A stretch of 64,000 bases of DNA from a virus: the IMG/VR virus record IMGVR_UViG_3300019889_000009, positions 7,799 through 71,798 of that record; one strand, given 5' to 3'. The translations under genes and the position numbers were made by a program. Positions within the stretch are counted from its first letter, which is position 1. The number at the start of each line of letters is the position of its first letter. Below, piece by piece: positions 7,283 through 34,371 of this stretch. A model generated the notes under the pieces. That model worked only from the letters and a program-made list of their open reading frames with translations. It made no database searches and was not told where the DNA came from.

Positions 7283-8293
7283 GTGAAAGAAAATTACCAA
7301 AAAGCGATGGCCATCGAACTCAAGTTTGAGGGTGGCAAGGACGATGATCCGATTGATCCCGGGGGTCGAACAAATCAGGGAGTCACGCAACGCGTCTATA
7401 CAGCGTGGCGATTGAAGAACGGAAAGCTTGCGCGCGACGTGTTCGTGATGGAGGCCGGCGAGCGTGACGCGATCTATTATCAAAACTACGGTCTCAAGGT
7501 TCGGTTTGATGAATTGCCCCCGGGTGTCGATCTGGTGCTGTTGGACGGAGCCATCAACTCGGGCCCTTCGCAATCGATCAAATGGGCGCAGCGTGCATTG
7601 AACCTAAATGCCGACGGTGTGCTGGGTGACGTCACGATGCAGCGCATTCAAGATCATCCGGACCACGATAAGCTGATCGAGGGCATCTGCTTTCGTCGCA
7701 TGGCGTTCTTGCGTGGTCTCAAAACGTTCTATCATTTCGGAGGTGGCTGGACCTCGCGCGTCAGTCAATTGAAGAAGAGTGGTCAAGCGTGGGCCATGGG
7801 TACGGTCGGCCCGCCCGTCATATTCGCGCCGAACGGCAACAAGAAGGCGACCATCGTCGACGCAAAGGCACTCCCTTCGACAGCACCCGCGGATGCGACG
7901 GCTGCTGGTGGTGGTGTCAGCACTGCGTTGACAACGGCCCAGTCCGTCTTCGAGCCATTGCAGGGACGATCGAATACGATCGACAATATCCTGCTGGGCC
8001 TTATGGTCGGAGGTCTGTTGTTGACGGCCTTCGGTTTCGCATACGGCTATTGGGTCCGTCAGAAGAGGAACGAGCTCAATGATGTCCTCGATCTCGAGCC
8101 GCAGAAGATGGGTTACGCGGATAACGACAATATCCCCAATGAAGTGTTGGCACAGTATGTCGATCCGAACTTACATGGTTCAGAGACCGGCAACATTGCG
8201 CCGGGTAACGTCACGACGTCGGGGCGTACAGCGGGAGACGCCGAAGAACGTGTCAACCCTCCTGCTCCTGTACCTGAGAGCAAAGTAGCTTAA
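7283..8293 (+). CDS. Endolysin, glycoside hydrolase family 108 with peptidoglycan-binding domain and C-terminal TM segment
   Basis: EGG-x-x-DDPIDPGGRTNQGVTQ GH108 motif; FGGGWTSRV; AAGGAG RBS with GTG start. Confidence 0.9.
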   Translation: MKENYQKAMAIELKFEGGKDDDPIDPGGRTNQGVTQRVYTAWRLKNGKLARDVFVMEAGERDAIYYQNYGLKVRFDELPPGVDLVLLDGAINSGPSQSIKWAQRALNLNADGVLGDVTMQRIQDHPDHDKLIEGICFRRMAFLRGLKTFYHFGGGWTSRVSQLKKSGQAWAMGTVGPPVIFAPNGNKKATIVDAKALPSTAPADATAAGGGVSTALTTAQSVFEPLQGRSNTIDNILLGLMVGGLLLTAFGFAYGYWVRQKRNELNDVLDLEPQKMGYADNDNIPNEVLAQYVDPNLHGSETGNIAPGNVTTSGRTAGDAEERVNPPAPVPESKVA

Positions 8294-19601: not shown

Positions 19602-20693
19602 ATGATCACGTATTCTCCGCAAGTGACTAAAAAAGCAAACTTGTATATCGACAAATTGCGCGATCGTTGGATGGACAAGCCGGAGCGTTGGGATACCGAG
19701 GCACTGCGCACAACATTGTGCGAACTGATCTACTCGTGCTGCGGTGACTGCGTGCCGTATGAGGGGGAACCAAAATTCGTACTCCTAGGTCGTGACCCAC
19801 AAGCACCCGACCTGATCTTGGAGTGGGCCGAAACGAGACTGGCGATCGAACCAACAGCAACGGAGAAGTGTGAGTCAGCTCGATTGCGCGCGAACGAGAT
19901 GCTGTTTTGGAAATCGCACGTCATGACGCTCGGTCTCGATTATGAAGCGTACCTTGAGCATCTCAACTCCCGCACGTCGCGCGTCAAGTGGGTGGTCACG
20001 AACAGTGAGGGGGACAAGTTCGGTATTTGGGACGGGGGTCCGACGTGGTCCAAGAACATCGATCAGGCTTTGAAGTTCGCAGACCGCGAGTCCGCAGAGA
20101 AGTACTGCGCTGATGATGAAGACGCGTGGCGCGTCGTCGCGATCCCTGATCACACTCCCTTGACTGATGCACAACGCAAGACCGCAGCCGATGCAATCGC
20201 GGAGTATGTCGCGGAGTCGATCAAAACGATGCCCAAAGAACTGCGACGTGTCGCTGACACATTCCCCGACAATCACTGGGATCGCAACGTGCTCATGTTC
20301 ATGGCTGATTTGGTAGACCCTCCCGTCAACAGAGTGCTCAATTCACGGGAGCAAATTGCAGAAGCAATCGCTGACGTGGCCGATGCCGTTCTTACGCTCT
20401 CCATACCCGAGGACGGTCCCAAAATGGTGTTGGTCGATGATACGGATCCTGTGATGGTGCTGCAGTTGTTTCGGGAGTTCGTCACGCGCAACGCGACGCA
20501 GTGGGTCATGGGTGCCGGGGATCATCATCACCCAATGTGGGAACTGGTCGCGACTGCGATCGAAAACGGGTCGGAGATACTGCCCGAGGCCGACCTGCAT
20601 CGGGGCACTGCATACGCCTTCATCCAGCCGACAAACCGCAAGCCATGGTCTGAATTTGCGCAATCGCAGGAGCTCGATAACGGGGCAGTATGA
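19602..20693 (+). CDS. Hypothetical (probably mosaic) protein
   Basis: 363 aa ORF with GAGG RBS. Confidence 0.55.
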   Translation: MITYSPQVTKKANLYIDKLRDRWMDKPERWDTEALRTTLCELIYSCCGDCVPYEGEPKFVLLGRDPQAPDLILEWAETRLAIEPTATEKCESARLRANEMLFWKSHVMTLGLDYEAYLEHLNSRTSRVKWVVTNSEGDKFGIWDGGPTWSKNIDQALKFADRESAEKYCADDEDAWRVVAIPDHTPLTDAQRKTAADAIAEYVAESIKTMPKELRRVADTFPDNHWDRNVLMFMADLVDPPVNRVLNSREQIAEAIADVADAVLTLSIPEDGPKMVLVDDTDPVMVLQLFREFVTRNATQWVMGAGDHHHPMWELVATAIENGSEILPEADLHRGTAYAFIQPTNRKPWSEFAQSQELDNGAV

Positions 20694-24770: not shown

Positions 24771-24913
24771 GACCTCAGTCCTTCTGTTTTGCAGTTATCG
24801 GAACTGAATGTTCCGAGCCGTCATATTAGACCCCTGATCAGGAGTTGCAAGGTTAAGGTTTTCTGTGTCGTTTGGCCGACATACTGTACCCATGTCGACG
24901 AGTTGTCATAACC

Positions 24914-26485
24914 ATGCTGAGCCCCCGCGCGATCAAAGCATTTGTTAAACGACCTCGAAAGGATTGGTCGACGTGGAAGCACATCTCGGATGCCGAGCTT
25001 GAACGTCGCGCAGATAATCTGCCAGTGTTTCCCCCGATATGGGACCCCCTGAAGAAGCATCAAAAGACTTGTGTCGTGATCGGAGCGCGCAAGCGTCGTT
25101 TCGCATTCTTCAACGATACGGGCACTGGCAAGACTTACCTGTGCCTCGCGCTGATGGATTACTTCGATGAAGTTCAGGTGGCGGAGCAAAACCTCGTATT
25201 GGTGCCCAACATTTTGAACAAGTGGGAATGGCTGGACGAGGGGTTCAAGAAGCATGCTCCACACTTAAAGGCTGTCGTACTGACTGGGTCATCGAAACAC
25301 AAATGGCAACAGATCGAGGACAACCCCGACGCCAACGCATTCGTGGAAACCTATGCGGGCTTTGTTCGCATGCTGTGTCAATTGAAGTCGGTCAAAAAGA
25401 AAGGCAAGCCTGCGAAGAATAAATTGGTTCCAGATAAGAAGCTGGTCAGACGTATGGTCGATTTGTTCAAGGGAGTGTACTGCGACGAGTCAACGTTCCT
25501 GAAGAACCGCGCGAAGCTCCCATTCCGACTCGTCAATCAATTGAGCAAGACCGCAGAAACGTTTTTCATTTTGACTGCGACGCCGTTCGGTCGCAATGCC
25601 GAGGACTTGTGGTCGCAAATGATGCTCGTCGATCGTGGCGAGACTCTGGGCGAGACGCTTGGTCTATTCAGGGGAGCGTTCTATGACGCGAAGCCAAATT
25701 ATTGGGGCGGGTTTGAATACAAGTTCAAGAAGGATGGCAAGAAGCTGTTGTCGCATTTCTTAGACCATGGTTCGATCACATACCCCGCCGACGAAGCGGA
25801 CTTGCCCAAGGTCTCGCGGATCCCACGTCACGTCTCCCTAGGCGAGACTGCGGAGGCGTACTACGAACGCGCAAAAGAACAGATCATGGCTGCGCAAGGT
25901 AACTACAGTGAGATGAAAAACGCGTTCATGCGAATGCGTCAAATCAGTTCTGGGTTCATCGGCTATCGCGATGACGAAACGGGTCTCAAGGCAAAGTTCT
26001 CATTCGACACAAACCCCAAGCTCGAACTCCTTGAGACAGTCATGTTGGAGATTGACCCTAAGTACAAGGTGATCGTGTTTCACGAGTTCCAATACAGTGC
26101 GAAGGTGATCTCCGAGATGCTCGGGGATATTGGCATTGGTCATGTCAACATTTATGGCGACGTCAAGGACCCGCGTGGTCTGCGCAATCAATGGCGCGAC
26201 AATCCGAAGAAGCAAGTGTTGGTCTTGTCGAACTCGTCGGGGGGCTACGGGCTTAACTTGCAGGCTGCGAAGTATGGGATCTATTACGAGTCACCGGTCG
26301 GTGCAATCTTGCGCAAGCAAACTGAAAAGCGTTTCGATCGCCAGTACTCCCTGCACAAAAAGATTTTCATGCTTGACTTGATCGTTCGCGGCACCGCTGA
26401 TCAATCGATCTTAGACTTTCACGCTGAGGGTCGCTCCTTGTGGAAGGCGATATTGAACACGGGCCCGCAGTCGGTCTTTGATTGA
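24914..26485 (+). CDS. SNF2-family helicase
   Basis: DTGTGKT, CDEST, LTATP, QISSGF, GGYGLNLQ, RFDR motifs. Confidence 0.88.
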   Translation: MLSPRAIKAFVKRPRKDWSTWKHISDAELERRADNLPVFPPIWDPLKKHQKTCVVIGARKRRFAFFNDTGTGKTYLCLALMDYFDEVQVAEQNLVLVPNILNKWEWLDEGFKKHAPHLKAVVLTGSSKHKWQQIEDNPDANAFVETYAGFVRMLCQLKSVKKKGKPAKNKLVPDKKLVRRMVDLFKGVYCDESTFLKNRAKLPFRLVNQLSKTAETFFILTATPFGRNAEDLWSQMMLVDRGETLGETLGLFRGAFYDAKPNYWGGFEYKFKKDGKKLLSHFLDHGSITYPADEADLPKVSRIPRHVSLGETAEAYYERAKEQIMAAQGNYSEMKNAFMRMRQISSGFIGYRDDETGLKAKFSFDTNPKLELLETVMLEIDPKYKVIVFHEFQYSAKVISEMLGDIGIGHVNIYGDVKDPRGLRNQWRDNPKKQVLVLSNSSGGYGLNLQAAKYGIYYESPVGAILRKQTEKRFDRQYSLHKKIFMLDLIVRGTADQSILDFHAEGRSLWKAILNTGPQSVFD

Positions 26486-26611
26486 CGCGCGCATATGGTA
26501 GTTATGTGCGATAACCAGTTTGATCGATATCGTTCAAATTGTACATAATTGACGTCGAACGGATCCCAAAAGCCCTTGCAACAGTGGGGCCTTTTTTCCA
26601 CAGCCTCCAAT

Positions 26612-26640
26612 TTGACAACTGTAGCAGGGGTTACTATTAT
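26612..26640 (+). promoter_or_regulatory. Near-consensus sigma70 promoter upstream of the ribozyme-punctuated region
   Basis: TTGACA (26612-17), 17-nt spacer, TATTAT (26635-40). Confidence 0.75.
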
Positions 26641-26966
26641 ACAGGGGTTATCGATTGTACGTTATGGGACCCCCCGTCGTGATGACGCGATACTCCCCCG
26701 ACATTCGATGAAAGGGACCGATCCGAGGCCTCGCGATGAAATGCGCGAAACAAACTCCTCGCATGATTGCAGCCCTTCACACGGACGAACGCGCAAGTGC
26801 CCATCGTGGCCGACGCAGCGCAAGACTCCCGGTGCATGATCGCCGCAAGGGCAAAAGTATTCGATGGTCAATACATCGATTTGGTTCCTGCGAGCGGCCG
26901 GAGCGTGGAGCTTGTGTAGACTCCCGACGAGGCGCGATCCATGTCATATGTTTTCTCCGAATAAAA

Positions 26967-26995
26967 TTGCCCAAACCCATGTTGCGGGCTAGCGT
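26967..26995 (+). promoter_or_regulatory. Possible second sigma70-type promoter just before hammerhead 1
   Basis: TTGCCC-N17-TAGCGT. Confidence 0.35.
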
Positions 26996-27010
26996 GAATT
27001 GACACGCAAC

Positions 27011-27093
27011 GTCGAAACCCCCTCACCGCGCTAACGTAATGCACCGAGGGGGTCAACGTCGATCGGCTATCGACGTTCTGATGATGACAAGCC
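27011..27093 (+). ncRNA. Type II hammerhead ribozyme, copy 1 (predicted cut after 27054)
   Basis: GTC-GAAA-CCCCCTC(21-nt loop)GAGGGGG-TC-AACGTCG(ATCGGCTAT)CGACGTT-CTGATGA-T-GAC; loop GGCT pairs with tail AGCC. Confidence 0.88.
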
Positions 27094-27107
27094 AAGGGAA
27101 AACGATA

Positions 27108-27296
27108 ATGTTCCTTATTGAGGTGTTTGATAAAATGTCCGAGCTCGAATTAAATCGGCTTGAGAAGCACCCAACAGCCAACAGCGAAGCGCACAAAGTT
27201 GGTAAGCGACGATATGAAGTGATCACCAACGATCTTCAGGAGCTGATCACATTAGTACCATCGTTGTGCGAAGGCAAGAGAGTCGAAACGGCCTAA
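27108..27296 (+). CDS. Small hypothetical early protein
   Basis: AAGGGA RBS after ribozyme 1; stop codon falls in loop III of ribozyme 2. Confidence 0.55.
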   Translation: MFLIEVFDKMSELELNRLEKHPTANSEAHKVGKRRYEVITNDLQELITLVPSLCEGKRVETA

Positions 27297-27344
27297 GGGC
27301 CGTCAACGTCGATTGGTCCCGACGTTCTGATGATGATAGACCAA
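27282..27344 (+). ncRNA. Type II hammerhead ribozyme, copy 2 (cut after 27304)
   Basis: GTC-GAAA-CGGCC(TAAG)GGCCG-TC-AACGTCG(ATTGGTCC)CGACGTT-CTGATGA-T-GAT; TTGGTC pairs with GACCAA. Confidence 0.9.
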
Positions 27345-27356
27345 ACACAATGGAGA

Positions 27357-27563
27357 ATGACAATGAGCGAATTGAATACGATTGCTGAACTGTTGAAACA
27401 TCGGCACGCTCCCTTTAACGGGTTGACGATTGAAAACGTTTCGAAGTTAGGACGAGTTACTGTCGTGCACTACGTCGTCGAAACGAACGCGTTTACTCAT
27501 TACCGCGTTGCGATTGTGAACGGTGATCATGTTGAGTCCGACATGATTGCCGATCAAGAATAG
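27357..27563 (+). CDS. Small hypothetical early protein
   Basis: GGAG RBS; TAG overlaps ribozyme 3. Confidence 0.55.
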   Translation: MTMSELNTIAELLKHRHAPFNGLTIENVSKLGRVTVVHYVVETNAFTHYRVAIVNGDHVESDMIADQE

Positions 27564-27625
27564 TCGAAACTCCCTAACAAGGGAGTCTTGAACGATTGGT
27601 CCCGTTCAACTGATGATGACAGACC
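27563..27625 (+). ncRNA. Type II hammerhead ribozyme, copy 3 (cut after 27587)
   Basis: GTC-GAAA-CTCCC(TAACAA)GGGAG-TC-TTGAACG(ATTGGTCC)CGTTCAA-CTGATGA-T-GAC-AGACC. Confidence 0.92.
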
Positions 27626-27639
27626 GAGGAGTTACGAAC

Positions 27640-27765
27640 ATGCAGTTTGAAATATGGATGGTGCCTGCGGCAGTCTGTTTGCTTGCTATAGGCTATTACT
27701 TTTGGATGTTGAAAACGCGCATTGAAAAAGTGCGGTACGATCGCATCATGAACATTGGGCGATAA
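27640..27765 (+). CDS. 41-aa membrane peptide (not in ORF track)
   Basis: GAGGAG RBS; MQFEIWMVPAAVCLLAIGYYFWMLK...; TAA abuts ribozyme 4. Confidence 0.6.
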   Translation: MQFEIWMVPAAVCLLAIGYYFWMLKTRIEKVRYDRIMNIGR

Positions 27766-27827
27766 GTCGAAACGGGCGCGAGCCCGTCTGACGCGATTGG
27801 TCCCGCGTCACTGATGATGACAGACCA
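27766..27827 (+). ncRNA. Type II hammerhead ribozyme, copy 4 (cut after 27788)
   Basis: GTC-GAAA-CGGGC(GCGA)GCCCG-TC-TGACGCG(ATTGGTCC)CGCGTCA-CTGATGA-T-GAC-AGACCA. Confidence 0.92.
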
Positions 27828-27836
27828 CAATGGAGA

Positions 27837-28148
27837 ATGAACATGACACCGATTGAACGATTTAAGATCCTTTTGGAGAAAGAGGCTAACAGCTCGAACT
27901 CGAAGGAGGCTAAGCGAGCTCGATTAGCTTTGAAAAGTCGTCAATTCAAGTCACTACGTCGATCGTTGCTTACACCATCTCGTTCTGATATCGGCAAACC
28001 CGTTCAATATGTCCCCGAACATCTCGAGGGTGTATTGGTCGACGTTTACGGCATCTTCGCAAAATTTAAATTCAAGCCCAAGGGGCGCGGTAAGAGCTTG
28101 TACGCTGAAACCGACGTGCGCAACTTGAAGCTGATCAAATCGAAATAA
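27837..28148 (+). CDS. Small basic hypothetical protein
   Basis: GGAG RBS; TAA abuts ribozyme 5. Confidence 0.6.
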   Translation: MNMTPIERFKILLEKEANSSNSKEAKRARLALKSRQFKSLRRSLLTPSRSDIGKPVQYVPEHLEGVLVDVYGIFAKFKFKPKGRGKSLYAETDVRNLKLIKSK

Positions 28149-28211
28149 GTCGAAACTCCCTACCAAGGGAGTCTTGCATGATTGGTCCCATGCAACTGAT
28201 GATGACAGACC
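28149..28211 (+). ncRNA. Type II hammerhead ribozyme, copy 5 (cut after 28173)
   Basis: GTC-GAAA-CTCCC(TACCAA)GGGAG-TC-TTGCATG(ATTGGTCC)CATGCAA-CTGATGA-T-GAC-AGACC. Confidence 0.92.
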
Positions 28212-28228
28212 GAACATGGAGAACTGAC

Positions 28229-28558
28229 ATGACAAAGATTTATCACACCCTACTCTCGCGTACGCCCGGTGAATTGTTCGCCATCGAGTTTGGCGATTTT
28301 GACAAATCGGTCGTTTTGCAGGAGCACGTTTATTTGAAGGAGTCGGGTTCGACGCCTCCCAAAACAACGTTCAAGGTGATCTCGTCGAAGTCTGATCAGC
28401 CATCGATCAAAGCGGCGGTTGAGTTCGAAAATGAAAAGATCAAAGCAAAAGTGCTGACTGAGGCGCTAGTCGCGTCGATCAAAAAGCACCACGGTGACGA
28501 ACGATCGCAACGTGCGCGCCATCAAGAAGCGATGGCACGTTTCCCGAAAGCGAAGTAA
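28229..28558 (+). CDS. Hypothetical early protein
   Basis: GGAG RBS; likely true start MTKIYH lies downstream of the ribozyme. Confidence 0.6.
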   Translation: MTKIYHTLLSRTPGELFAIEFGDFDKSVVLQEHVYLKESGSTPPKTTFKVISSKSDQPSIKAAVEFENEKIKAKVLTEALVASIKKHHGDERSQRARHQEAMARFPKAK

Positions 28559-28560
28559 CT

Positions 28561-28621
28561 GTCGAAACCCCCTGCGGGGGGTCTGCCACAATTGGTCCCG
28601 TGGCACTGATGATGACAGACC
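28561..28621 (+). ncRNA. Type II hammerhead ribozyme, copy 6 (cut after 28583)
   Basis: GTC-GAAA-CCCCC(TGCG)GGGGG-TC-TGCCAC(AATTGGTCCC)GTGGCA-CTGATGA-T-GAC-AGACC. Confidence 0.92.
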
Positions 28622-28635
28622 TTTAGGAGATTAAA

Positions 28636-28875
28636 ATGATGGAGTACTTGTTACTTGCTGTCATGAACGCACATCCTCGACAAGAGGTGGCGATTTTGCA
28701 GGCGACATTGATACCCACGACTGGGTGGCTGGTAATTTATGAGGCCGGCGACGAAGTGCGTTGTGGGTTCGTTATGGAGCAAAAGGCTAGTGTGGCGTTT
28801 GAATGGTCGCACAAATTGCGAAGCATCACGCGTCGAGCTAACCGAACGTTCCGAAAACAAAAAGCCAAGTCTTAA
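28636..28875 (+). CDS. Small hypothetical early protein
   Basis: AGGAG RBS. Confidence 0.55.
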   Translation: MMEYLLLAVMNAHPRQEVAILQATLIPTTGWLVIYEAGDEVRCGFVMEQKASVAFEWSHKLRSITRRANRTFRKQKAKS

Positions 28876-28878
28876 ACG

Positions 28879-28943
28879 GTCGAAACTCCCTAACAAGGGA
28901 GTCTTGAACGATTGGTCCCGTTCAACTGATGATGACAGACCAA
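28879..28943 (+). ncRNA. Type II hammerhead ribozyme, copy 7 (cut after 28903); identical to copy 3
   Basis: Same sequence as 27563-27625. Confidence 0.92.
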
Positions 28944-28951
28944 AATGGAGA

Positions 28952-29161
28952 ATGACAATGATTGAGAACCACTATGAACTGAACCTCGCGCTTGATGGTA
29001 GGCATTATGCGCGGGTCAGTTTCAGCCCGTCACTGTCGAGGGAAGACGCAAAGGTGCGCAGTTGCGTTATTGCGGAGGCCCTGCAAGCCGGCAACACTCA
29101 GGGGCGTTGGTCGTTTGACTTGACGTTCGTTGAATGCGTCGGGCGGTCGGTGACGTTCTGA
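28952..29161 (+). CDS. Small hypothetical early protein
   Basis: GGAG RBS, MTMIENHYEL. Confidence 0.55.
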   Translation: MTMIENHYELNLALDGRHYARVSFSPSLSREDAKVRSCVIAEALQAGNTQGRWSFDLTFVECVGRSVTF

Positions 29162-29532
29162 TGGCACGTAAGCGAGCTCTATCGACTGCGGAGTTGTCAG
29201 ACAGCTTCTCAAGCCCTGATGGCTTGATCAAGTACGAGGAGTGGGAGGAGCGAGTGTTCCGAGCCTCGATACGATACAGTACCAACGTCCCCCTAGGTCG
29301 GGGGCGTGTCGAGACGAAATGGTGGCCAACGTATCCTGAGGCCATGCTGATTGCGATGCACACTCCACGCGCGATATTGTATTGTTCGACACAAAGCGGT
29401 CGGTCAGTCTGCATCGCGCGCAAGGATTACGAAAAGTACTTGAAGCTCTACAATAAACTAACGAGGCAATCACTGCGAATGCCCCGTGACCCCCTCAAGC
29501 TGCGCGCGAAGCGTGAAAGGATACGATTGTGA
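29161..29532 (+). CDS. Hypothetical protein ending KRERIRL
   Basis: TGATG coupling to the upstream gene. Confidence 0.55.
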   Translation: MARKRALSTAELSDSFSSPDGLIKYEEWEERVFRASIRYSTNVPLGRGRVETKWWPTYPEAMLIAMHTPRAILYCSTQSGRSVCIARKDYEKYLKLYNKLTRQSLRMPRDPLKLRAKRERIRL

Positions 29533-29729
29533 AATGGGAGGTGAGCACTCCTGATGACTTCAAGCCGATCTTCGGTGAAAGTCTCCATACTGTTTTTCGC
29601 GGCGTCCACGTTGTTATGACCTGGGACGACACATCTAATCAGTATGTCGTGCAAGAGTCAAAAACTCGTAAGGTAATCGCAGCTGCACGTCGCAAAGGCG
29701 AATGTTATAAGCAGATGAGATCGAAGTAA
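29529..29729 (+). CDS. Small hypothetical protein
   Basis: GTGA overlap; stop 4 nt before ribozyme 8. Confidence 0.5.
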   Translation: MKWEVSTPDDFKPIFGESLHTVFRGVHVVMTWDDTSNQYVVQESKTRKVIAAARRKGECYKQMRSK

Positions 29730-29733
29730 AAAA

Positions 29734-29797
29734 GTCGAAACTCCCTACCAAGGGAGTCTTGCATGATTGGTCCCATGCAACTGATGATGACAGACCA
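29734..29797 (+). ncRNA. Type II hammerhead ribozyme, copy 8 (cut after 29758); identical to copy 5
   Basis: Same sequence as 28149-28211. Confidence 0.92.
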
Positions 29798-29813
29798 CGA
29801 AAGAGAAAACGAA

Positions 29814-30266
29814 ATGTCAAAAGCACCAAGAGCTGGTTCAAGCAAGGCCGCGGTCTATACCGTGTTCCATGCTGAGGGTCTAGCTGCTGCGATCAAGAAA
29901 GCAGTTGCGCTAGGTCTCAAAGAAAGCACAGCTAAATCATGGGCTGGAGGCTGGGCGCGGAGTCCGGAACAGGAAGTGACTCCTGTCAAGGTCAAGCGCG
30001 TCAAGCTCCCGAAAGCATCCCTTGATCAATTGGAGGACGACGGCACCGGACCCGCGTCAGTTGGCTATAAGGGTCAGTTGATCAGGAGGCGCATGCGCGT
30101 CGTCGAAGTCGGAGTCGGCAAAAACCGTGCCGGCCGCATCATGGAGTTGGGAGGTCAGGTATCCATTGTGAAATGGGAAACCGAAGCACTCCCGACGCCG
30201 CAGGCTATCAGCAATAAAAACCTCGCACCTTACGACACGTTCAAGACTGAAAGGGTACGGATATGA
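29814..30266 (+). CDS. Hypothetical protein; N-domain paralogous to 24456..24770
   Basis: RAGSSKAAVYTVFHAEGLAAAIKKAVALGLKESTAKSW. Confidence 0.6.
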   Translation: MSKAPRAGSSKAAVYTVFHAEGLAAAIKKAVALGLKESTAKSWAGGWARSPEQEVTPVKVKRVKLPKASLDQLEDDGTGPASVGYKGQLIRRRMRVVEVGVGKNRAGRIMELGGQVSIVKWETEALPTPQAISNKNLAPYDTFKTERVRI

Positions 30267-30466
30267 CGGGTCTACACAAGAAGACAATCGCGTTTGACTG
30301 CAACCTACGTCAACGTGCGTTGGAGATCGAGCGCATCGCATGTCGCGATTACCTCGATGATAACGCCGACGTCGCAGACATCGCACTCGATGAATTGCAC
30401 ATTGACTCCGATCGATCGGATCAAGCCATTGCGCGGGTTTGTTCAATGCGCATTGCGTACCCATAG
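30263..30466 (+). CDS. Small hypothetical protein
   Basis: ATGA overlap; TAG overlaps ribozyme 9. Confidence 0.55.
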   Translation: MTGLHKKTIAFDCNLRQRALEIERIACRDYLDDNADVADIALDELHIDSDRSDQAIARVCSMRIAYP

Positions 30467-30527
30467 TCGAAACGGCCCACGGGCCGTCTGCGAGGAGTGA
30501 GCACCTCGCACTGATGATGACAGCTCA
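30466..30527 (+). ncRNA. Type II hammerhead ribozyme, copy 9 (cut after 30488)
   Basis: GTC-GAAA-CGGCC(CACG)GGCCG-TC-TGCGAGG(AGTGAGCA)CCTCGCA-CTGATGA-T-GAC; TGAGC pairs with GCTCA. Confidence 0.92.
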
Positions 30528-30545
30528 TAATGTTGGAGAACGACA

Positions 30546-30719
30546 ATGGCTAAAGCACCAGCGACCGACGCGATCAAGGTCGCAATGACGCACACCAAGG
30601 ACACCAAGGGGACGTTCGTGTTTTCTAGCGATGATCCTGATGCTGCGGTGACGCAGTTATACGTTCGCCGTTCGGCAATGAAGACTCCGCGCGAAACGAT
30701 CACCTTGACGATTGAGTAG
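30546..30719 (+). CDS. 57-aa hypothetical protein (not in ORF track)
   Basis: GGAG RBS; MAKAPATDAIKVAMTHTKDTKGTFVF... Confidence 0.6.
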   Translation: MAKAPATDAIKVAMTHTKDTKGTFVFSSDDPDAAVTQLYVRRSAMKTPRETITLTIE

Positions 30720-30728
30720 GAGGAGTGG

Positions 30729-31037
30729 TTGGCGAAGTATCGAGGCGACTATTACACCATTACGCTCGATGAGCGTGAGTTAGGTGGTGACATGACAACC
30801 CTTGCCGCATTTGATGATTGGCGTGAAGCGCAAGCGGCGTGGGAAGCGATGCCTGAACCTGAACAGGGTTGCATTTGGTTTGGTAAATGCAACCATATAG
30901 ACAAAAGCTACAGCGAAGCGATCTCGTGCAAGGGGCCAGACAAAGACCCGTTGTTTGAGCAATGGGTCCAGGCGATCGATGAGTTGATAGAAGAGGGCTC
31001 TATTAAAGTGCGCGGTAAAAAAGCGACACGACACTAG
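30729..31037 (+). CDS. Hypothetical protein
   Basis: AGGAGGAG RBS, TTG start; TAG overlaps ribozyme 10. Confidence 0.55.
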   Translation: MAKYRGDYYTITLDERELGGDMTTLAAFDDWREAQAAWEAMPEPEQGCIWFGKCNHIDKSYSEAISCKGPDKDPLFEQWVQAIDELIEEGSIKVRGKKATRH

Positions 31038-31100
31038 TCGAAACTCCCCTACGGGGGAGTCTGCGAGGAGCGGCTCTCCTCGTACTGATGATGACAAGCC
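31037..31100 (+). ncRNA. Type II hammerhead ribozyme, copy 10 (cut after 31061)
   Basis: GTC-GAAA-CTCCCC(TACG)GGGGAG-TC-TGCGAGG(AGCGGCTCT)CCTCGTA-CTGATGA-T-GAC; GGCT pairs with AGCC. Confidence 0.9.
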
Positions 31101-31114
31101 AACGGAGAACTACA

Positions 31115-31420
31115 ATGAAACGGTTACTGATTACAGCCGCATTGATCACACTCACGACCTCCGCGTTTGCGGACTCGTATGTGTCAACGTCGAACTGTGG
31201 GCACTCGCGTGTCTACGGGTACAGTAAATGCAGCAACACAGTCACTTATGTTCCTGATCGCGACCGCAACCTCGAGCAAGAACGGCTCGACGCACTAGCG
31301 ATTGCAAAGGAGGACGCAAAGTGGGAAGCGTTTTGCAAGCCGTCGCGTTATGTCGACTCTTTCGGCATGACCAGGATGCATTTTGCACAAACTGGCTGTG
31401 AGTTTGGGAGGAGCGAATGA
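31115..31420 (+). CDS. Secreted protein with Sec signal peptide
   Basis: MKRLLITAALITLTTSAFA; GGAG RBS; four Cys. Confidence 0.65.
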   Translation: MKRLLITAALITLTTSAFADSYVSTSNCGHSRVYGYSKCSNTVTYVPDRDRNLEQERLDALAIAKEDAKWEAFCKPSRYVDSFGMTRMHFAQTGCEFGRSE

Positions 31421-31599
31421 GATCGAAGTTGTCATGCCCCTGCGGGTCGGGCTTAGACTCGCAATGGCAGTTTGATGCGCGCGGTATCGAATTGTGCCGC
31501 ACGTGTCGCAAGTGTAATGACACCAAGATGTCGGGGTATCGTCGCGACGTGTTGACGAACTCCAATTATCAATGCGACGAACCAATTGAGGAGGATTAA
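31417..31599 (+). CDS. Small zinc-finger-like protein
   Basis: CPCGSG...CRTCRKC; GGAGG RBS. Confidence 0.6.
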   Translation: MRSKLSCPCGSGLDSQWQFDARGIELCRTCRKCNDTKMSGYRRDVLTNSNYQCDEPIEED

Positions 31600-31605
31600 A
31601 TCACA

Positions 31606-31776
31606 ATGGCACAGATCAGAGTCACCCTACGCGGGCAAGGCGGTGAGTTGGATTCCCGGGTCATCAATCCGTCTGAAGATGCATTTGAGGCGGAGGTTCG
31701 TCACGCGGTGATGGATATTGTCCTCAATTGCGTGCTTGCCGCAGGCGATAGCATCACGATCGAAGAAATGGATTAA
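31606..31776 (+). CDS. 56-aa hypothetical protein (not in ORF track)
   Basis: GAGGA RBS; MAQIRVTLRGQGGELD...; stop 2 nt before ribozyme 11. Confidence 0.55.
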   Translation: MAQIRVTLRGQGGELDSRVINPSEDAFEAEVRHAVMDIVLNCVLAAGDSITIEEMD

Positions 31777-31778
31777 AT

Positions 31779-31843
31779 GTCGAAACCCCCTATCAAGGGG
31801 GTCTGCCGCAATTGAGCACGCGGCACTGATGATGACGGCTCAA
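31779..31843 (+). ncRNA. Type II hammerhead ribozyme, copy 11 (cut after 31803)
   Basis: GTC-GAAA-CCCCC(TATCAA)GGGGG-TC-TGCCGC(AATTGAGCAC)GCGGCA-CTGATGA-T-GAC; TTGAGC pairs with GCTCAA. Confidence 0.92.
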
Positions 31844-31857
31844 AGGAGAAAGAAACT

Positions 31858-32841
31858 ATGGCACATAAAGTAGAGAGTATGGCGTATGCGGGACAAGTTC
31901 CTTGGCATGGGCTCGGCGTCAACGTCGATCACAAGCAAACTCCCGCGCAAATGATGAAGGCGTCAAAGACCGATTGGAAGGTCTCGAAGCGCCAACTTCA
32001 TTACCCCGACACTGCAGGCAAGCTTATTCCTGCCGATGGGGAGTTCGCTATCGTTCGTGATACGGACGACAAACTTCTGACGACGGTCGGCGCCACATAT
32101 ATGCCGGTCCAGAACGAGGAGATTTTTGATTTCTTCAAGAAGTTTACGACGGCCGGCAAAATGACAATGGAGACTGCGGGCTCCCTGTCGGACGGTCAAT
32201 ACATTTGGGCCCTTGCTCGTCTCGGCAAGGACTTCAAAGTCGGCAACGGCAAAGGAGGCGACGAGGTCAGACCGTATCTCCTGATCATGTCACCTCATGT
32301 TCATGGCAAAGCCTTGATCATGCAGTACACACCCATTCGTGTGGTCTGCTGGAACACGTTGTCGATGGCTCTCGGTTCCGACCTCAAAGGAAAGAGGGGC
32401 GAGGGCTTCAAGATGGCACACTCACAGAAGTGGGATGCCAAGAGTGGTGAAGCGGAAATTGCATTGAACCTCGCGATGGTACAGACCGAGGAGTTCAAGG
32501 ATTGCGCGCAACACCTCGCGAAGAAGAAAGCGACCAAGGACACGGTTGACAAGTACTTCCTGTCGATCCTTACAAACCCTGGCAAAAAGATCGAAGGCAC
32601 CGAGGAGTCCAAGAAGACTCCGACATTGCTTCCGAAGTTTCGTGCCGCGTTGGAGCGAGCTCCGGGTGCGACGATGCCATCTGCGCAAGGCACCTGGTGG
32701 GGTGCGTTGAATGCAGTCACCTATGTTATCGACCACGAAGTTGGCAAAGATCGCCAAACTGCGTTGCGAGGAGCATGGGTCGGCAATCACCAGAAGACGA
32801 AGCTGCGAGCGCTTCAGCTGGCGATTGAAGGAGCGAAGTAA
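31858..32841 (+). CDS. DUF932-family phage/plasmid protein
   Basis: MAHKVESMAYAGQVPWHGLG, YMPVQN, ETAGSL, TPIRVVCWNTL, GTWWGALNAVT. Confidence 0.85.
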   Translation: MAHKVESMAYAGQVPWHGLGVNVDHKQTPAQMMKASKTDWKVSKRQLHYPDTAGKLIPADGEFAIVRDTDDKLLTTVGATYMPVQNEEIFDFFKKFTTAGKMTMETAGSLSDGQYIWALARLGKDFKVGNGKGGDEVRPYLLIMSPHVHGKALIMQYTPIRVVCWNTLSMALGSDLKGKRGEGFKMAHSQKWDAKSGEAEIALNLAMVQTEEFKDCAQHLAKKKATKDTVDKYFLSILTNPGKKIEGTEESKKTPTLLPKFRAALERAPGATMPSAQGTWWGALNAVTYVIDHEVGKDRQTALRGAWVGNHQKTKLRALQLAIEGAK

Positions 32842-32880
32842 ACTACACCTGATGATGTAAACAGTAACGGAGTAAAGAGA

Positions 32881-33297
32881 ATGCCTAAACCAATGACCAT
32901 GACAATCGAAGTCGAGGAGATCGCCTTCGGTCGCGTGTGGAGAACCCTTGATCAAATGCAGGGGGTGATAACGTTGAAGATGCACGGCACCGGGCCCAAG
33001 CCTAATAAGGGGTCCCCTGTAGCGCGTGCGTCGTCAAAGAAGGGGGACACGGTTACGTGCGTCGTCCTCAAGGCTCTGGCTCATGGTAAGCCGGAAAACA
33101 AAGCAGCATTGATTGATGCTGTGGTTGCTGCGGGTAAGGCGGCGACGTCATTTCCCGACTCGATCAGTAAACTGAAGAAAGCGAAGCACATTACCAACCC
33201 ATCGTCGGGGGTATTTAAGATCACCGTCGCGGGCGCTAAGTATCTCTCAACTGTCTGCAACGGTGCACCGAAACAGGAGTCCAAGTCCAATGGCTAA
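32881..33297 (+). CDS. Putative winged-helix DNA-binding protein
   Basis: GGAG RBS; basic C-terminal wHTH-like segment. Confidence 0.5.
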   Translation: MPKPMTMTIEVEEIAFGRVWRTLDQMQGVITLKMHGTGPKPNKGSPVARASSKKGDTVTCVVLKALAHGKPENKAALIDAVVAAGKAATSFPDSISKLKKAKHITNPSSGVFKITVAGAKYLSTVCNGAPKQESKSNG

Positions 33298-33643
33298 ATC
33301 GTCATTCATTCGACCATATCACTATATCGATAAAAATCCTGTTATCGATAAAGTCCGAACGATGCTGCAAGATGTCGGTCTGATCAACAAGCTTGGTATC
33401 GTTGCAAACCTCTCGACAATGAACAAAGCAACATTCGAGGGGTGGTTTGACGGCGACGTGAAAGACCCACGTCACTCGTCAATCGCACGCGTGACGGAAT
33501 CTGTCGGCTATGAACTGACGCTGCGCAAGCAGCGTACGATCAAGTTGGACGAGGAGTTGGCCGCCGCTAAGGAGTGGCGTGCGGAGCAACGCAAAAAGGC
33601 GAACGGCAAAAAGAAGCCTGCTGCGAAGAAGAAAAAGAAATAA
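33290..33643 (+). CDS. XRE-like HTH protein with Lys-rich tail
   Basis: VANLSTMNKATFEGWFDGDVKDPRHSSIARV; AGGAG RBS; TAA abuts ribozyme 12. Confidence 0.6.
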   Translation: MAKSSFIRPYHYIDKNPVIDKVRTMLQDVGLINKLGIVANLSTMNKATFEGWFDGDVKDPRHSSIARVTESVGYELTLRKQRTIKLDEELAAAKEWRAEQRKKANGKKKPAAKKKKK

Positions 33644-33708
33644 GTCGAAACGGGCCTACGGGCCCGTCTGTCACGATTGATCACGTGGCACTGATGATGA
33701 CAGATCAA
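33644..33708 (+). ncRNA. Type II hammerhead ribozyme, copy 12 (cut after 33668)
   Basis: GTC-GAAA-CGGGCC(TACG)GGCCCG-TC-TGTCACG(ATTGATCA)CGTGGCA-CTGATGA-T-GAC; TTGATC pairs with GATCAA. Confidence 0.92.
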
Positions 33709-33719
33709 GGAGAAGTAAC

Positions 33720-33983
33720 ATGACGACATTGAGTCATAAGAATTTGACCGCTCATAACTTTTTGACCGATCAAGGTGCTTGCGTCCATCTGCACCACGAA
33801 GCTGAGCACGGTGGTGACGCGGAGAACGGTCCCGGCAAGGTATTTCCGGCGTGGGACGAGTACGATAGCGAGTCGCATTTTATTGTGATCGATGATAGCG
33901 GCCTGATCGTGCACACTGAAATGATTGATTGGGATTTACTTGCTTGGCTTGAGGATCGAGAGTGGGAGGCTGATCATGGCTAA
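33720..33983 (+). CDS. Small acidic hypothetical protein
   Basis: AAGGAG RBS directly after ribozyme 12. Confidence 0.6.
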   Translation: MTTLSHKNLTAHNFLTDQGACVHLHHEAEHGGDAENGPGKVFPAWDEYDSESHFIVIDDSGLIVHTEMIDWDLLAWLEDREWEADHG

Positions 33984-34371
33984 CCGAGTTATCGTTACCC
34001 TGCAGTTCGACGTGAACGCACATGGTAATAAGCAATGGTTCAACGTGTTCAACGAGCATGCGGTGGACCTTTTGAAGCATGCTAACGAAATGCCCGGTCT
34101 CGGACTGCTAGTCAATGCGACAAGTACGCGGGCAAGTGGAGTTGGAGATGTGCGACGGTTGAACGTGAACGTAAGGGGAGTGCCCACTGCGGGTGCTCCC
34201 AAGATATTCACGTTTTGCGCTGACTGCCCAAACACGTCGTGGTGCCGAACACAAGGGCATTGCGAACGTGCAGCTCTAATGCGGTTGCGTGATGCCAACC
34301 ACGCTCGCGCTTATGGTAACCAAGACCCCCCTCGCAAGAAAAAGGTCGTCAAGAAGAAGAGGGTCAAATGA
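33976..34371 (+). CDS. Hypothetical protein with C-terminal Cys cluster
   Basis: GGAGG RBS; CADCPNTSWCRTQGHC. Confidence 0.55.
   Translation: MANRVIVTLQFDVNAHGNKQWFNVFNEHAVDLLKHANEMPGLGLLVNATSTRASGVGDVRRLNVNVRGVPTAGAPKIFTFCADCPNTSWCRTQGHCERAALMRLRDANHARAYGNQDPPRKKKVVKKKRVK

What the first reader, a model, noticed from the sequence alone, without database searches (positions are those of the whole stretch)
27011..33708. Twelve type II hammerhead ribozymes punctuate the phage early operon at gene boundaries
Seen: twelve ~62-83 nt intergenic elements start at 27011, 27282, 27563, 27766, 28149, 28561, 28879, 29734, 30466, 31037, 31779 and 33644. All read GTC-GAAA-[hairpin]-TC-[hairpin]-CTGATGA-T-GAY. 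Established: this is the hammerhead core (CUGANGA, GAAA, GUC cleavage triplet) in type II topology with stem II open; an extra base between A9 and G10.1 is a tolerated natural variant. Seen: stems I and III differ widely between copies yet stay paired while the core is invariant, which indicates selection on RNA structure. Each copy precedes an RBS, and all lie downstream of a near-consensus sigma70 promoter. Inference: one early transcript cuts itself into 1-3-gene units of 250, 283, 201, 385, 410, 320, 855, 730, 573, 742 and 1865 nt. This would be a protein-free analogue of RNase III processing of T7 early mRNA, giving 5'-OH hairpin-capped ends that are poor for RNase E 5'-monophosphate sensing. 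Phage hammerheads are known; I cannot tell from here whether an array this dense has been described.
Basis: partly seen in the sequence, partly recalled or inferred. Interest (0 to 1): 0.96.

Follow-up and report, generated by a model that had tools for sequence, protein, structure and literature searches.

The report
Twelve-hammerhead ribozyme array in a soil phage
A soil phage places twelve well-formed self-cutting hammerhead RNAs between its small genes of unknown function, probably chopping one long message into short ones; this layout has been known in prophages since 2011, so it is a large, clean example and not a new kind of system.

Summary
Eleven of 12 pass Rfam RF02276's gathering score; the first scores 33.4 against 37 because of an insertion in stem III. 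My own covariance model finds all 12 and no other strong match in the 71.8-kb record. The catalytic core is invariant. Stems I and III and the loop I/3'-tail pseudoknot covary (95.8% of cells paired, against 30-42% in slid controls). All twelve predicted cut sites and all eleven fragment sizes check out. The only 11-of-12 sigma70-like promoter in the window lies 370 nt upstream.

Self-cleavage of one transcript into 1-3-gene mRNAs is the best reading, but it was not tested: no RNA run holds this DNA and the host is unknown. "Early" is an inference.

The idea is in print. Perreault et al. 2011 described clustered hammerheads flanking genes in prophages and showed that triple arrays cut in vitro and in vivo. 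I found arrays of 9 and 6 copies in other IMG/VR phages. This scan's earlier notes, which I did not check, report such arrays on other DNA in at least 108 genomes, with up to about 33 copies. Verdict: a new member of a known kind, of moderate interest.

The parts
26574..26599 (+). Terminator-like hairpin with a T run. It follows the SNF2-type helicase gene (24872-26485) and would close the upstream transcription unit.
   Evidence: Pattern scan. Helicase domains. Consensus match only.
26612..26640 (+). Sigma70-like promoter TTGACA-17-TATTAT. The predicted start is near 26647.
   Evidence: 11 of 12; the only 11-of-12 site in the 64-kb window on either strand, where 30 shuffles give a mean of 0.33. 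Function not tested.
26647..27010 (+). Leader of about 365 nt with no convincing ORF. Cleavage at 27054 would release it.
   Evidence: The ORFs 26736-27002 (+) and 26777-26980 (-) translate to Arg-rich, junk-like sequence. No Rfam match.
27011..27095 (+). HH1, cut after 27054. It has a long stem III loop insertion, a 9-bp stem I and the pseudoknot GGCU/AGCC.
   Evidence: Rfam 33.4 bits, below gathering. R1 66.2 bits. Anatomy.
27282..27344 (+). HH2, cut after 27304. The stop codon of the upstream gene (27294-27296) lies in its stem III loop. Stem II ends in a G-U pair.
   Evidence: Rfam 48.5 bits..
27563..27627 (+). HH3, cut after 27587. Its first G is the last base of the upstream TAG. It is identical to HH7 over about 63 nt.
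   Evidence: Rfam 43.6 bits when scanned alone..
27766..27828 (+). HH4, cut after 27788.
   Evidence: Rfam 48.5 bits..
28149..28213 (+). HH5, cut after 28173. It is identical to HH8 over about 63 nt.
   Evidence: Rfam 47.1 bits..
28561..28623 (+). HH6, cut after 28583. The pseudoknot is 4 bp (GGUC/GACC).
   Evidence: Rfam 40.1 bits..
28879..28943 (+). HH7, cut after 28903.
   Evidence: Rfam 44.1 bits..
29734..29798 (+). HH8, cut after 29758.
   Evidence: Rfam 47.5 bits..
30466..30528 (+). HH9, cut after 30488. The pseudoknot is GUGAGC/GCUCAU.
   Evidence: Rfam 50.1 bits..
31037..31102 (+). HH10, cut after 31061. The pseudoknot is GGCU/AGCC.
   Evidence: Rfam 46.6 bits..
31779..31843 (+). HH11, cut after 31803. 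The pseudoknot is UUGAGC/GCUCAA. It directly precedes the DUF932 gene.
   Evidence: Rfam 42.5 bits..
33644..33708 (+). HH12, cut after 33668. The pseudoknot is UUGAUC/GAUCAA. It is the last copy; downstream genes run on without ribozymes.
   Evidence: Rfam 52.9 bits..
27108..33643 (+). Nineteen small + strand ORFs (41-327 aa) in 11 ribozyme-bounded units of 1-3 genes. Genes within a unit overlap or lie 6-39 nt apart.
   Evidence: ORF and RBS calls. No Pfam match at or above cut-off and no PHROG match, except for the gene at 31858-32841. No paralogues among them.
31858..32841 (+). DUF932 protein, the only array gene with a family match.
   Evidence: Pfam PF06067, E 2e-41. phrog_1221, E 6e-61.

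Best explanation
Host RNA polymerase probably starts at the sigma70-like promoter at 26612-26640 and makes one long + strand transcript. That transcript carries twelve type II hammerhead ribozymes, each in an intergenic gap.

How each ribozyme folds: three helices surround the conserved core.
- Stem II is 3 bp (GUC/GAC), with a bulged U after A9.
- Stem III is a hairpin of 6-7 bp.
- Stem I is a hairpin of 6-9 bp.
- A 4-6-bp pseudoknot between loop I and the 3' tail holds stems I and II parallel.

Each ribozyme cuts after C17 of GUC. The result is 11 internal RNAs of 201-1865 nt, each carrying 1-3 genes.

What each product looks like:
- It starts, with a 5'-OH, at the first paired base of stem I. 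The 5' hairpin is therefore flush with the end. The pseudoknot tail, an SD motif and the start codon follow within 11-18 nt of the pseudoknot.
- It ends in the stem III hairpin of the next ribozyme, plus one C bearing a 2',3'-cyclic phosphate.
- Every upstream stop codon lies 5' of the cut, so no message loses its stop.

The likely benefit is that each small gene unit gets a standard, insulated 5' UTR and structured, chemically unusual ends. Its translation and decay are then uncoupled from its neighbours.

Shown here: the motif, the core, the covariation, the geometry and the positions. Inferred: transcription, cleavage in vivo, timing and the effect on stability.
For: - Rfam RF02276: 11 of 12 copies at or above gathering, the twelfth at 33.4 bits.
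- The core is invariant in 12 of 12 copies while the stems vary.
- Covariation: 95.8% of cells paired against 30-42% in slid controls. Twelve of 22 pairs changed on both sides, including 3 pseudoknot pairs in four sequence classes.
- The same fold covaries across 78 copies from 28 other phage loci: 97.9% paired, 14 of 16 pairs changed on both sides. That alignment is fitted to the model.
- The near-identical pairs HH3/7 and HH5/8 differ from each other by two compensatory base-pair swaps in stem I.
- All 12 copies are on the gene strand. They start -15 to +8 nt from the upstream stop, and the next start codon lies 11-18 nt after the pseudoknot.
- Every gap longer than 39 nt between 27002 and 33720 holds a hammerhead. 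Junctions without one are overlaps or gaps of 6, 9 and 39 nt.
- The promoter is the best sigma70 match in the window.
- Precedent: PMC3088659, section 6 (read in full). Clustered hammerheads flank genes in prophages; triple arrays cleaved completely in vitro, and one cleaved in E. coli. Type II hammerheads use exactly this pseudoknot, and its disruption lowers the rate 20- to more than 100-fold.
- Three type II hammerheads near phage-like genes cleave in vivo in Desulfovibrio vulgaris (PMC8782182, passages).
- The extra nucleotide after A9 is tolerated, and a U there raised the rate (PMC3705267, passage).
Against: - There is no RNA evidence. No listed run holding this DNA is on record as RNA.
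- The host is unknown. The best terminase matches are below 40% identity.
- Transcription, timing and cleavage are all inferred.
- HH1 is below Rfam's gathering score.
- Stem II is only 3 bp with a bulge.
- A nested MFE fold recovers the full three-way junction in 7 of 12 copies. In four copies (HH3, HH4, HH6, HH7) it prefers the loop I/tail helix to stem I, and in HH12 it misses stem II. So folding depends on the pseudoknot or on co-transcriptional order.
- Ribosomes terminating 0-8 nt upstream, or inside HH2, would cover the 5' strand of the ribozyme and could delay cutting.
- From recall, a 5'-OH end is a decay signal in hosts that have RNase J1 (the glmS case). The stability benefit is therefore not general.
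Confidence: 0.8

Rival explanations
1. The ribozyme-plus-RBS cassettes act mainly, or additionally, at the DNA level. As about 65-95-nt near-identical repeats at every unit boundary, they would serve as sites of homologous recombination. Recombination there would swap, add or delete accessory-gene cassettes between co-circulating phages, as proposed for the PeSL promoter/stem-loop cassettes of T4-type phages. This does not exclude cleavage.
For: - HH3 equals HH7 and HH5 equals HH8 over about 63 nt, while the genes they flank are unrelated.
- The repeat extends through the RBS (GGAGAAYGACAATG) in several copies.
- In contigs of a second study that hold 61% of the words, four of seven distinct points where a contig leaves the window sequence fall at a cassette edge: 27841/27843, 30527, 33663 and 32881. 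One record joins 33703 to 27826.
- A 45%-identical DUF932 gene lies in a hammerhead-punctuated block at another place and orientation in a distant relative.
- PeSL precedent: PMC2839356 and PMC4122927 (search listing and start of abstracts only).
Against: - The contig evidence is weak. Depth is 2-5, unitigs break at any repeat, and unrelated phages in the same soil that carry similar hammerheads would give the same loose ends.
- An invariant catalytic core with covarying stems is selection on RNA, not on DNA identity.
- Ten of the 12 copies are not identical to any other.
Confidence: 0.25
2. Cleavage is gated by translation of the upstream gene. The stop codon abuts or overlaps the 5' strand of each ribozyme, so a terminating or translating ribosome unfolds stem II and stem III. 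The cut can then happen only before the first ribosome arrives or once ribosome traffic falls. That would link the separation and decay of each unit to its translation state.
For: - The stop-to-ribozyme distance is -15, -1, 0, 0, +2, +3, +4, -1, -1, +2 and 0 nt for HH2-HH12.
- In HH2 the stop codon sits in the stem III loop, so ribosomes read through the stem II strand, GAAA and half of stem III.
- In three copies the stop TAG shares its G with the GUC strand.
Against: - Tight packing of signals is normal in phage genomes and may simply save space.
- Hammerheads with this pseudoknot cut at more than 1 per minute at 0.5 mM Mg2+ (PMC3088659, passage). They may therefore cut co-transcriptionally, before ribosomes arrive.
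- Nothing here tests it.
Confidence: 0.2
3. After cleavage the fragments are rejoined. Every released unit carries the 3' half of one ribozyme at its 5' end and the 5' half of the next at its 3' end. Stem II is the same in all copies. Any two ends could therefore reassemble a hammerhead that ligates, or a host RtcB-type ligase could join them, giving circular or re-ordered mRNAs.
For: - Stem II is GUC/GAC in 11 of 12 copies and GUC/GAU in HH2, so the halves are interchangeable.
- Cleavage leaves the 2',3'-cyclic phosphate and 5'-OH that ligation needs. This is established hammerhead chemistry, as stated in PMC8782182 (abstract).
- Perreault et al. raise spliced or circular products as a possibility.
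Against: - Perreault et al. looked for such products in their clusters and detected none (PMC3088659, section 6).
- A 3-bp stem II is a weak clamp between separated halves.
- No RNA data exist for this phage.
Confidence: 0.05
4. The elements are catalytically dead repeats that act only as hairpins, for example as terminators or attenuators, nuclease sites or protein-binding sites. On this reading the hammerhead resemblance is an evolutionary leftover.
For: No cleavage assay was possible. HH1 scores below Rfam's threshold. On the - strand three copies also match a terminator-like pattern.
Against: - All catalytic positions (C3-A9, G12-A14, A15.1-U16.1, C17) are invariant in 12 of 12 copies, while nearly every stem position varies with compensation. 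That pattern is not expected for mere hairpins.
- The same pattern holds in 78 copies from other phages.
- The - strand terminator-like matches are not above the shuffle expectation: 10 found against 9.7 expected.
Confidence: 0.04

Closest known systems
Clustered hammerhead ribozymes flanking genes in prophages (Perreault et al. 2011, PMC3088659; sections 6 and 8 read, figures and supplements not seen)
   Same: - Type II hammerheads with a loop I/3'-tail pseudoknot and a short stem II.
- They lie between single genes or short gene blocks of phage origin, on the gene strand.
- The proposed role is processing long phage transcripts into gene-length mRNAs.
- They are associated with anti-restriction-type accessory genes.
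   Different: - There are twelve copies in 6.7 kb here, against the three-copy arrangements that were tested there. I could not see how many copies their Figure 3 examples hold.
- This is a free phage contig from soil, not a prophage.
- All copies here carry the extra U after A9.
- Cleavage was not tested here.
Hammerhead arrays in other uncultured phages
   Same: - The same ribozyme variant (GUC-GAAA ...
- Arrays of 9 copies in 3.6 kb at a contig end (G001) and of 6 copies (G002) have single-gene spacing.
- Earlier notes of this scan list arrays of 10, 12, 17, 24-33 and about 30 copies in other genomes (I did not check them).
   Different: The genes between the ribozymes are unrelated. Of the 118 contigs I examined myself (the 117 pattern-selected contigs plus this one), this one has the most copies.
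RNase III processing of the phage T7 early transcript (recalled, not checked in a call)
   Same: One polycistronic early RNA is cut at intergenic structured sites into separate, hairpin-ended mRNAs.
   Different: The cut here would be made by the RNA itself, without a host enzyme. It would leave 5'-OH and 2',3'-cyclic-phosphate ends, where RNase III leaves 5'-phosphate and 3'-OH.
Synthetic ribozyme insulators (RiboJ, VtmoJ) placed before each RBS in engineered operons (Lou et al. 2012, as cited in PMC6993053; passages read)
   Same: A hammerhead directly upstream of the RBS removes the upstream context and leaves a 5' hairpin that is reported to lengthen mRNA half-life. Engineered polycistrons frame each gene with its own ribozyme.
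   Different: Those are engineered parts derived from a plant satellite RNA ribozyme (as I recall). This array is natural, of type II, and pseudoknot-stabilised.
PeSL promoter/stem-loop cassettes of T4-type phages (PMC2839356, PMC4122927; search listing and start of abstracts only)
   Same: Short conserved regulatory repeats lie at the boundaries of small variable genes and are proposed to mediate modular shuffling.
   Different: PeSLs are promoter-terminator motifs, not ribozymes. Shuffling at hammerhead cassettes is only hinted at here.

Membership tests
Hammerhead ribozyme, type II (Rfam RF02276) | Score at or above the family's gathering threshold (37 bits) | tested here: met
   Eleven of 12 copies score 40.1-52.9 bits. 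HH1 scores 33.4 bits.
Hammerhead ribozyme, type II (Rfam RF02276) | Conserved core: C3 U4 G5 A6 N7 G8 A9, G12 A13 A14, the A15.1-U16.1 pair, and H17 at the cleavage site | tested here: met
   CUGAUGA, GAAA, the A-U closing pair of stem III and GUC are invariant in 12 of 12 copies.
Hammerhead ribozyme, type II (Rfam RF02276) | Three helices around the core, with stems I and III closed by loops and stem II open (type II permutation) | tested here: met
   Stem II 100%, stem III 100% and stem I 97.6% of cells paired. Nine of 13 stem I and stem III pairs changed on both sides.
Hammerhead ribozyme, type II (Rfam RF02276) | G10.1-C11.1 pair directly next to the core | tested here: met
   The pair is present in 12 of 12 copies if the U after A9 is read as a bulge. 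Copies in other phage arrays with and without the U keep the pair: C-G in 78 of 78. The next pair covaries: UA 56, CG 16, AU 3, GC 2.
Hammerhead ribozyme, type II (Rfam RF02276) | Pseudoknot of 4 or more bp between loop I and the nucleotides just 3' of stem II (found in a majority of type II members, per PMC3088659) | tested here: met
   The pseudoknot is 4-6 bp in 12 of 12 copies, in four sequence classes: GGUC/GACC, GAGC/GCUC, GAUC/GAUC and GGCU/AGCC.
Hammerhead ribozyme, type II (Rfam RF02276) | Site-specific self-cleavage giving 2',3'-cyclic-phosphate and 5'-OH ends | not testable with these tools
   No RNA run holds the stretch, and no assay was possible.
Clustered prophage hammerheads that process polycistronic transcripts (Perreault 2011) | Several hammerheads close together, on the gene strand, flanking single genes or short gene blocks of a phage | tested here: met
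   Twelve copies in 6.7 kb, all on the + strand, bound units of 1-3 genes. Phage identity comes from terminase, portal, DNA polymerase A and helicase domains and from the IMG/VR record.
Clustered prophage hammerheads that process polycistronic transcripts (Perreault 2011) | One transcript spans the cluster and is cut at every ribozyme | not testable with these tools
   There is only a promoter-like site upstream, with no other site of 10 of 12 or better inside the array.

The most novel reading that the evidence does not exclude
All twelve ribozymes share the same 3-bp stem II, and each released unit carries complementary ribozyme halves at its two ends. The units could therefore reassemble hammerheads in cis or in trans and be re-ligated, by the ribozyme's reverse reaction or by a host RtcB-type ligase. 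The products would be circular or re-ordered phage mRNAs. That would be a protein-coding circular RNA pool in a bacterial virus, resistant to exonucleases.
Probability: 0.05. Interest if true: 0.85.

Novelty: new member of a known kind. Interest (0 to 1): 0.36.

Why it matters
The biological role of bacterial and phage hammerheads is still described as largely elusive (review PMC6765202, passages). This locus is a clean natural test bed for that question. It has one strong promoter, twelve intact ribozymes and eleven defined products, all in 7 kb that could be cloned whole. Work on it could show several things:
- whether ribozyme punctuation sets the stoichiometry and lifetimes of phage accessory-gene mRNAs;
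- whether 5'-OH hairpin ends evade host RNases;
- whether translation gates cleavage;
- whether the cassettes also drive gene shuffling.

It is also a natural counterpart of the ribozyme insulators used in synthetic operons. It does not reveal a new kind of system. My five literature searches found no paper that describes arrays of ten or more copies, so a census of such arrays may still be worth publishing.

Tried and rejected
**RNA evidence.** No RNA holder was listed for window 26500-34000; the four runs listed are soil metagenome DNA? runs. I laid contigs of three of them. Contigs can show neither RNA ends nor expression.

**Close relatives.**
- blastn of 26900-34000 against 50,697 phage records gave 1 record, matching one 66-nt ribozyme only.
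- A search with the SNF2 helicase in IMG/VR gave 4 loci at 35-37% identity. They carry 2-4 hammerheads each, at other positions and orientations. Conservation of this particular array could therefore not be tested.

**Other RNA families.** No other Rfam ribozyme or RNA family reached E <= 1 near the array. Two MIR2084 matches at 2785-2856, far below gathering, were treated as chance.

**Possible decayed ribozymes.**
- At 32848-32866, in the only ribozyme-free gap of 39 nt, the model gives 5.4 bits.
- At 29137-29163 it gives -1 bit.
- A seed-level likeness exists, but I do not claim either as a relic.

**Gene functions.** Nineteen of the 20 array-region ORFs searched have no Pfam match at cut-off. 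Nine of the 10 searched in PHROGs have none. Mrr_N (22.4 bits against a cut-off of 29.5) and LNP1 matches are below cut-off and were ignored.

**Leader ORFs.** 26736-27002 (+) and 26777-26980 (-) look non-coding.

**Segmental duplication as the source of the identical ribozyme pairs.** Rejected, because there are no paralogues among 25 proteins.

**A phage-specific promoter box inside the array.** CAGTATGATT has 6 copies in the window and none between 21536 and 35673. Seven of 100 shuffles reach 6 at one mismatch or fewer.

**Host.** Terminase matches are all below 60% identity, the best being 38% to an Erwinia phage. The host is not assigned.

**Literature.** Five searches found no paper on hammerhead arrays of ten or more copies in phages. 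Subscription journals, and the supplements and figures of PMC3088659 (closed or not held), may hold larger examples.

Full report
**What the window is.** The window is bases 7799-71798 of a 71.8-kb linear IMG/VR virus record, estimated 76% complete. Nearly all large ORFs are on the + strand. They include a DnaB-like helicase, an SNF2 helicase, a family A DNA polymerase with a UDG domain, a large terminase and a portal protein. DNA runs of soil metagenomes from two studies hold the stretch. So it is a real tailed phage from soil. Its host is unknown: the best terminase match to a cultured phage is 38%.

**Checking the observation.**
- GTCGAAAC and CTGATGATGA each occur 13 times in 64 kb, 12 times at the stated elements. 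Chance expects 3.7 and 0.29.
- Rfam's type II hammerhead model (gathering score 37 bits) matched 9 copies in the whole-window scan.
- The twins at 27563 and 28879 were lost to the speed filters. They score 43.6 and 44.1 bits when scanned alone.
- The first copy scores 33.4 bits because of about 20 extra nt in its stem III loop.
- A covariance model built from the 12 copies finds all 12 on the + strand. The rest of the record gives only weak matches, the best at 21 bits inside an ORF.

**Anatomy.** Each element reads, 5' to 3':
1. GUC, the 3' strand of stem II.
2. GAA (G12-A14).
3. A stem III hairpin opened by the A15.1-U16.1 pair.
4. C17, the cleavage site.
5. A stem I hairpin.
6. CUGAUGA (C3-A9).
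7. One extra U.
8. GAC, which closes stem II (GAU in HH2).
9. One linker base.
10. A tail that pairs with loop I.

The alignment has 27 invariant columns covering the whole core. On this structure 95.8% of cells pair, against 30-42% for partners slid by 1-3 columns. Twelve of 22 pairs have changes on both sides, and 0 of 500 shuffles reach the covariation score. The pseudoknot comes in four compensating versions: GGUC/GACC, GAGC/GCUC, GAUC/GAUC and GGCU/AGCC. The nearly identical pairs HH3/HH7 and HH5/HH8 differ from each other by two double (compensatory) changes in stem I. This is selection on RNA structure with a fixed catalytic core.

**The extra U.** A review passage (PMC3705267, citing de la Pena and Flores 2001) states that a natural viroid hammerhead has an extra A between A9 and G10.1, and that changing it to U raised the trans-cleaving rate 3-4-fold. 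A conserved nucleotide at this place is also reported for Penelope-element hammerheads (PMC4209133, passage).

I took 78 copies that my model found in 28 other phage loci. Those loci were chosen because at least one copy matched my pattern, so they are biased towards the variant. About 62 of the 78 carry the U and about 11 lack it, sometimes within one array. Stem II covaries: GUC/GAC, GCC/GGC and ACC/GGU. The middle pair is UA 56, CG 16, AU 3 and GC 2. The U is therefore a facultative bulge next to a 3-bp stem II.

**Placement.**
- HH2-HH12 start -15 to +4 nt from the stop codon of the upstream gene. HH1 starts 8 nt after a doubtful upstream ORF.
- In HH2 the stop codon lies in the stem III loop. 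In three copies the stop TAG shares its G with GUC.
- The next start codon follows 11-18 nt after the pseudoknot. A GGAG motif lies between them in 10 of 12 copies.
- All stop codons lie 5' of the cut.
- Between 27002 and 33720 every gap longer than 39 nt holds a ribozyme. The eight junctions without one are overlaps or gaps of 6, 9 and 39 nt. The units are therefore translationally coupled blocks of 1-3 genes.
- The 19 genes in the units are 41-327 aa. Only one has a family match, DUF932. None is a paralogue of another.

**Transcription.** TTGACA-17-TATTAT at 26612-26640 is the only 11-of-12 sigma70 match in the window on either strand, where shuffles give 0.33. It follows a terminator-like hairpin with a T run. 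A leader of about 365 nt with no credible ORF separates it from HH1. This fits one transcript entering the array. But it is a consensus match, and 'early' rests only on that match and on the small orphan genes.

**Mechanism.** The best reading is self-cleavage into 11 internal mRNAs plus a released leader and a long downstream RNA.
- After the cut, each mRNA begins at the first paired base of stem I. The 5' hairpin is thus flush with the end, and the end bears a 5'-OH.
- Each mRNA ends in the stem III hairpin plus one C with a cyclic phosphate.
- From general knowledge (recalled), flush 5' hairpins and the lack of a 5' monophosphate hinder RNase E. A 3' hairpin without a tail, and without the 3'-OH that poly(A) polymerase needs, hinders 3' exonucleases.
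- From general knowledge (recalled), in RNase J1 hosts a 5'-OH promotes decay. The net effect therefore depends on the unknown host.
- Synthetic biology uses the same trick. RiboJ-type ribozymes before each RBS insulate the gene, and their hairpins are reported to lengthen half-life (PMC6993053, passages).

**What is already known.** Perreault et al. 2011 (sections 6 and 8 read) report the following:
- Type II hammerheads are common in bacteria.
- Most have this pseudoknot, and breaking it lowers the rate 20- to more than 100-fold.
- 'On many occasions' several hammerheads flank single genes or short blocks in prophages, implying processing of long phage transcripts.
- Three triple arrangements cut fully in vitro, and one cut in E. 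coli.
- Spliced or circular products were sought and not seen.

A 2019 review repeats the polycistronic-processing idea and calls the function largely elusive (PMC6765202). Three type II hammerheads near phage-like genes cut in vivo in Desulfovibrio vulgaris (PMC8782182).

**How unusual twelve is.** Most of the loci have 1-2 copies. One record has 9 in 3.6 kb at its end, another has 6, and three have 4. Of the 118 contigs I examined, this one has the most copies.

This scan's earlier notes, which I did not check, list 123 findings of hammerhead arrays on other DNA in at least 108 genomes, with 10 to about 33 copies. Five literature searches found no paper on arrays of ten or more. I could not see Perreault's Figure 3 or the supplements.

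**Secondary leads.**
- *DNA-level shuffling.* Identical ribozyme pairs flank unrelated genes. In low-depth contigs from a second study, four of seven distinct break points lie at cassette edges, and one record joins HH12 to the tail of HH4. Unitigs break at repeats, and other phages in the soil carry similar ribozymes, so this is only a hint. It would parallel the PeSL cassettes of T4-type phages (listing only).
- *Translation gating* follows from the stop-codon geometry but is untested.
- *Re-ligation into circles* is chemically possible because stem II is universal, but the one published search for such products was negative.

**Verdict.** The function is plausible and has precedent but was not tested here. 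This is a large, very regular new member of a known kind.

Noticed in passing
window 59088-61331 (+): The portal protein (Phage_portal_3, E 1e-99) carries a C-terminal Acb1 anti-CBASS domain (PF23474, E 1e-29, residues 532-674).
   Followed up: no
window 42422-45040 (+): One 872-aa protein combines an N-terminal uracil-DNA-glycosylase-superfamily domain, a 3'-5' exonuclease and a family A DNA polymerase.
   Followed up: no
window 26704-26855: The untranslated leader upstream of HH1 is the most variable part between samples. Contigs of the second study show about 17 substitutions and two 1-nt deletions there. From 26856 to 33836 only three places differ.
   Followed up: no
window 27841/27843, 30527, 32881, 33663; joint 33703 to 27826: Contigs from a second soil study leave the window sequence at the edges of ribozyme/RBS cassettes, and one record joins HH12 to the tail of HH4. 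This may mean cassette exchange, or it may be a repeat artefact.
   Followed up: partly
window 32842-32880: This is the only ribozyme-free gap longer than 10 nt in the array. It contains CCTGATGATGTAAACAG, which resembles the 3' half of the ribozymes, but my model gives only 5.4 bits. It may be a decayed copy or chance.
   Followed up: yes
window 29137-29163: A 27-nt stretch is 74% identical to stem I plus CUGAUG of HH1. It lies at a TGATG stop/start overlap between two genes. The model gives -1 bit.
   Followed up: yes
window 20068-20129 (+): A weak hammerhead-model match (21 bits, E 0.001) lies inside the ORF 19602-20693 and contains CTGATGATGA. It is probably chance.
   Followed up: partly
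L129 13926-18143 (- strand of the locus): A distant relative (SNF2 helicase 37% identical) has a DUF932 gene 45% identical to the window's. That gene sits between four hammerheads, in the opposite orientation to the helicase.
   Followed up: partly
L133 (GenBank MW202801.1) 8002-8064: A complete 40-kb Caudoviricetes genome has one unannotated hammerhead of this variant (54.8 bits). It lies just after a gene annotated 'antirestriction protein' and a small ORF, and it overlaps two annotated hypothetical CDS ends. That protein is unrelated to the window's DUF932 protein.
   Followed up: partly
G001 (record of L073) 87-3646, - strand: Nine hammerheads lie in 3.6 kb at the very end of a 75.6-kb contig, spaced 241-872 nt apart. 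The array may continue beyond the contig end.
   Followed up: partly
window 12674, 20686, 21527, 35673, 37414, 45364 (+): There are six exact copies of CAGTATGATT, all on the + strand and none inside the ribozyme array. Seven of 100 shuffles reach six matches at one mismatch or fewer.
   Followed up: partly
HH3, HH5, HH7, HH8, HH10 (stem III): In 5 of 12 copies stem III is CUCCC paired with GGGAG. That is an anti-SD-like strand paired with an SD-like strand, and it stays on the 3' end of the upstream product. Its meaning is unknown.
   Followed up: no
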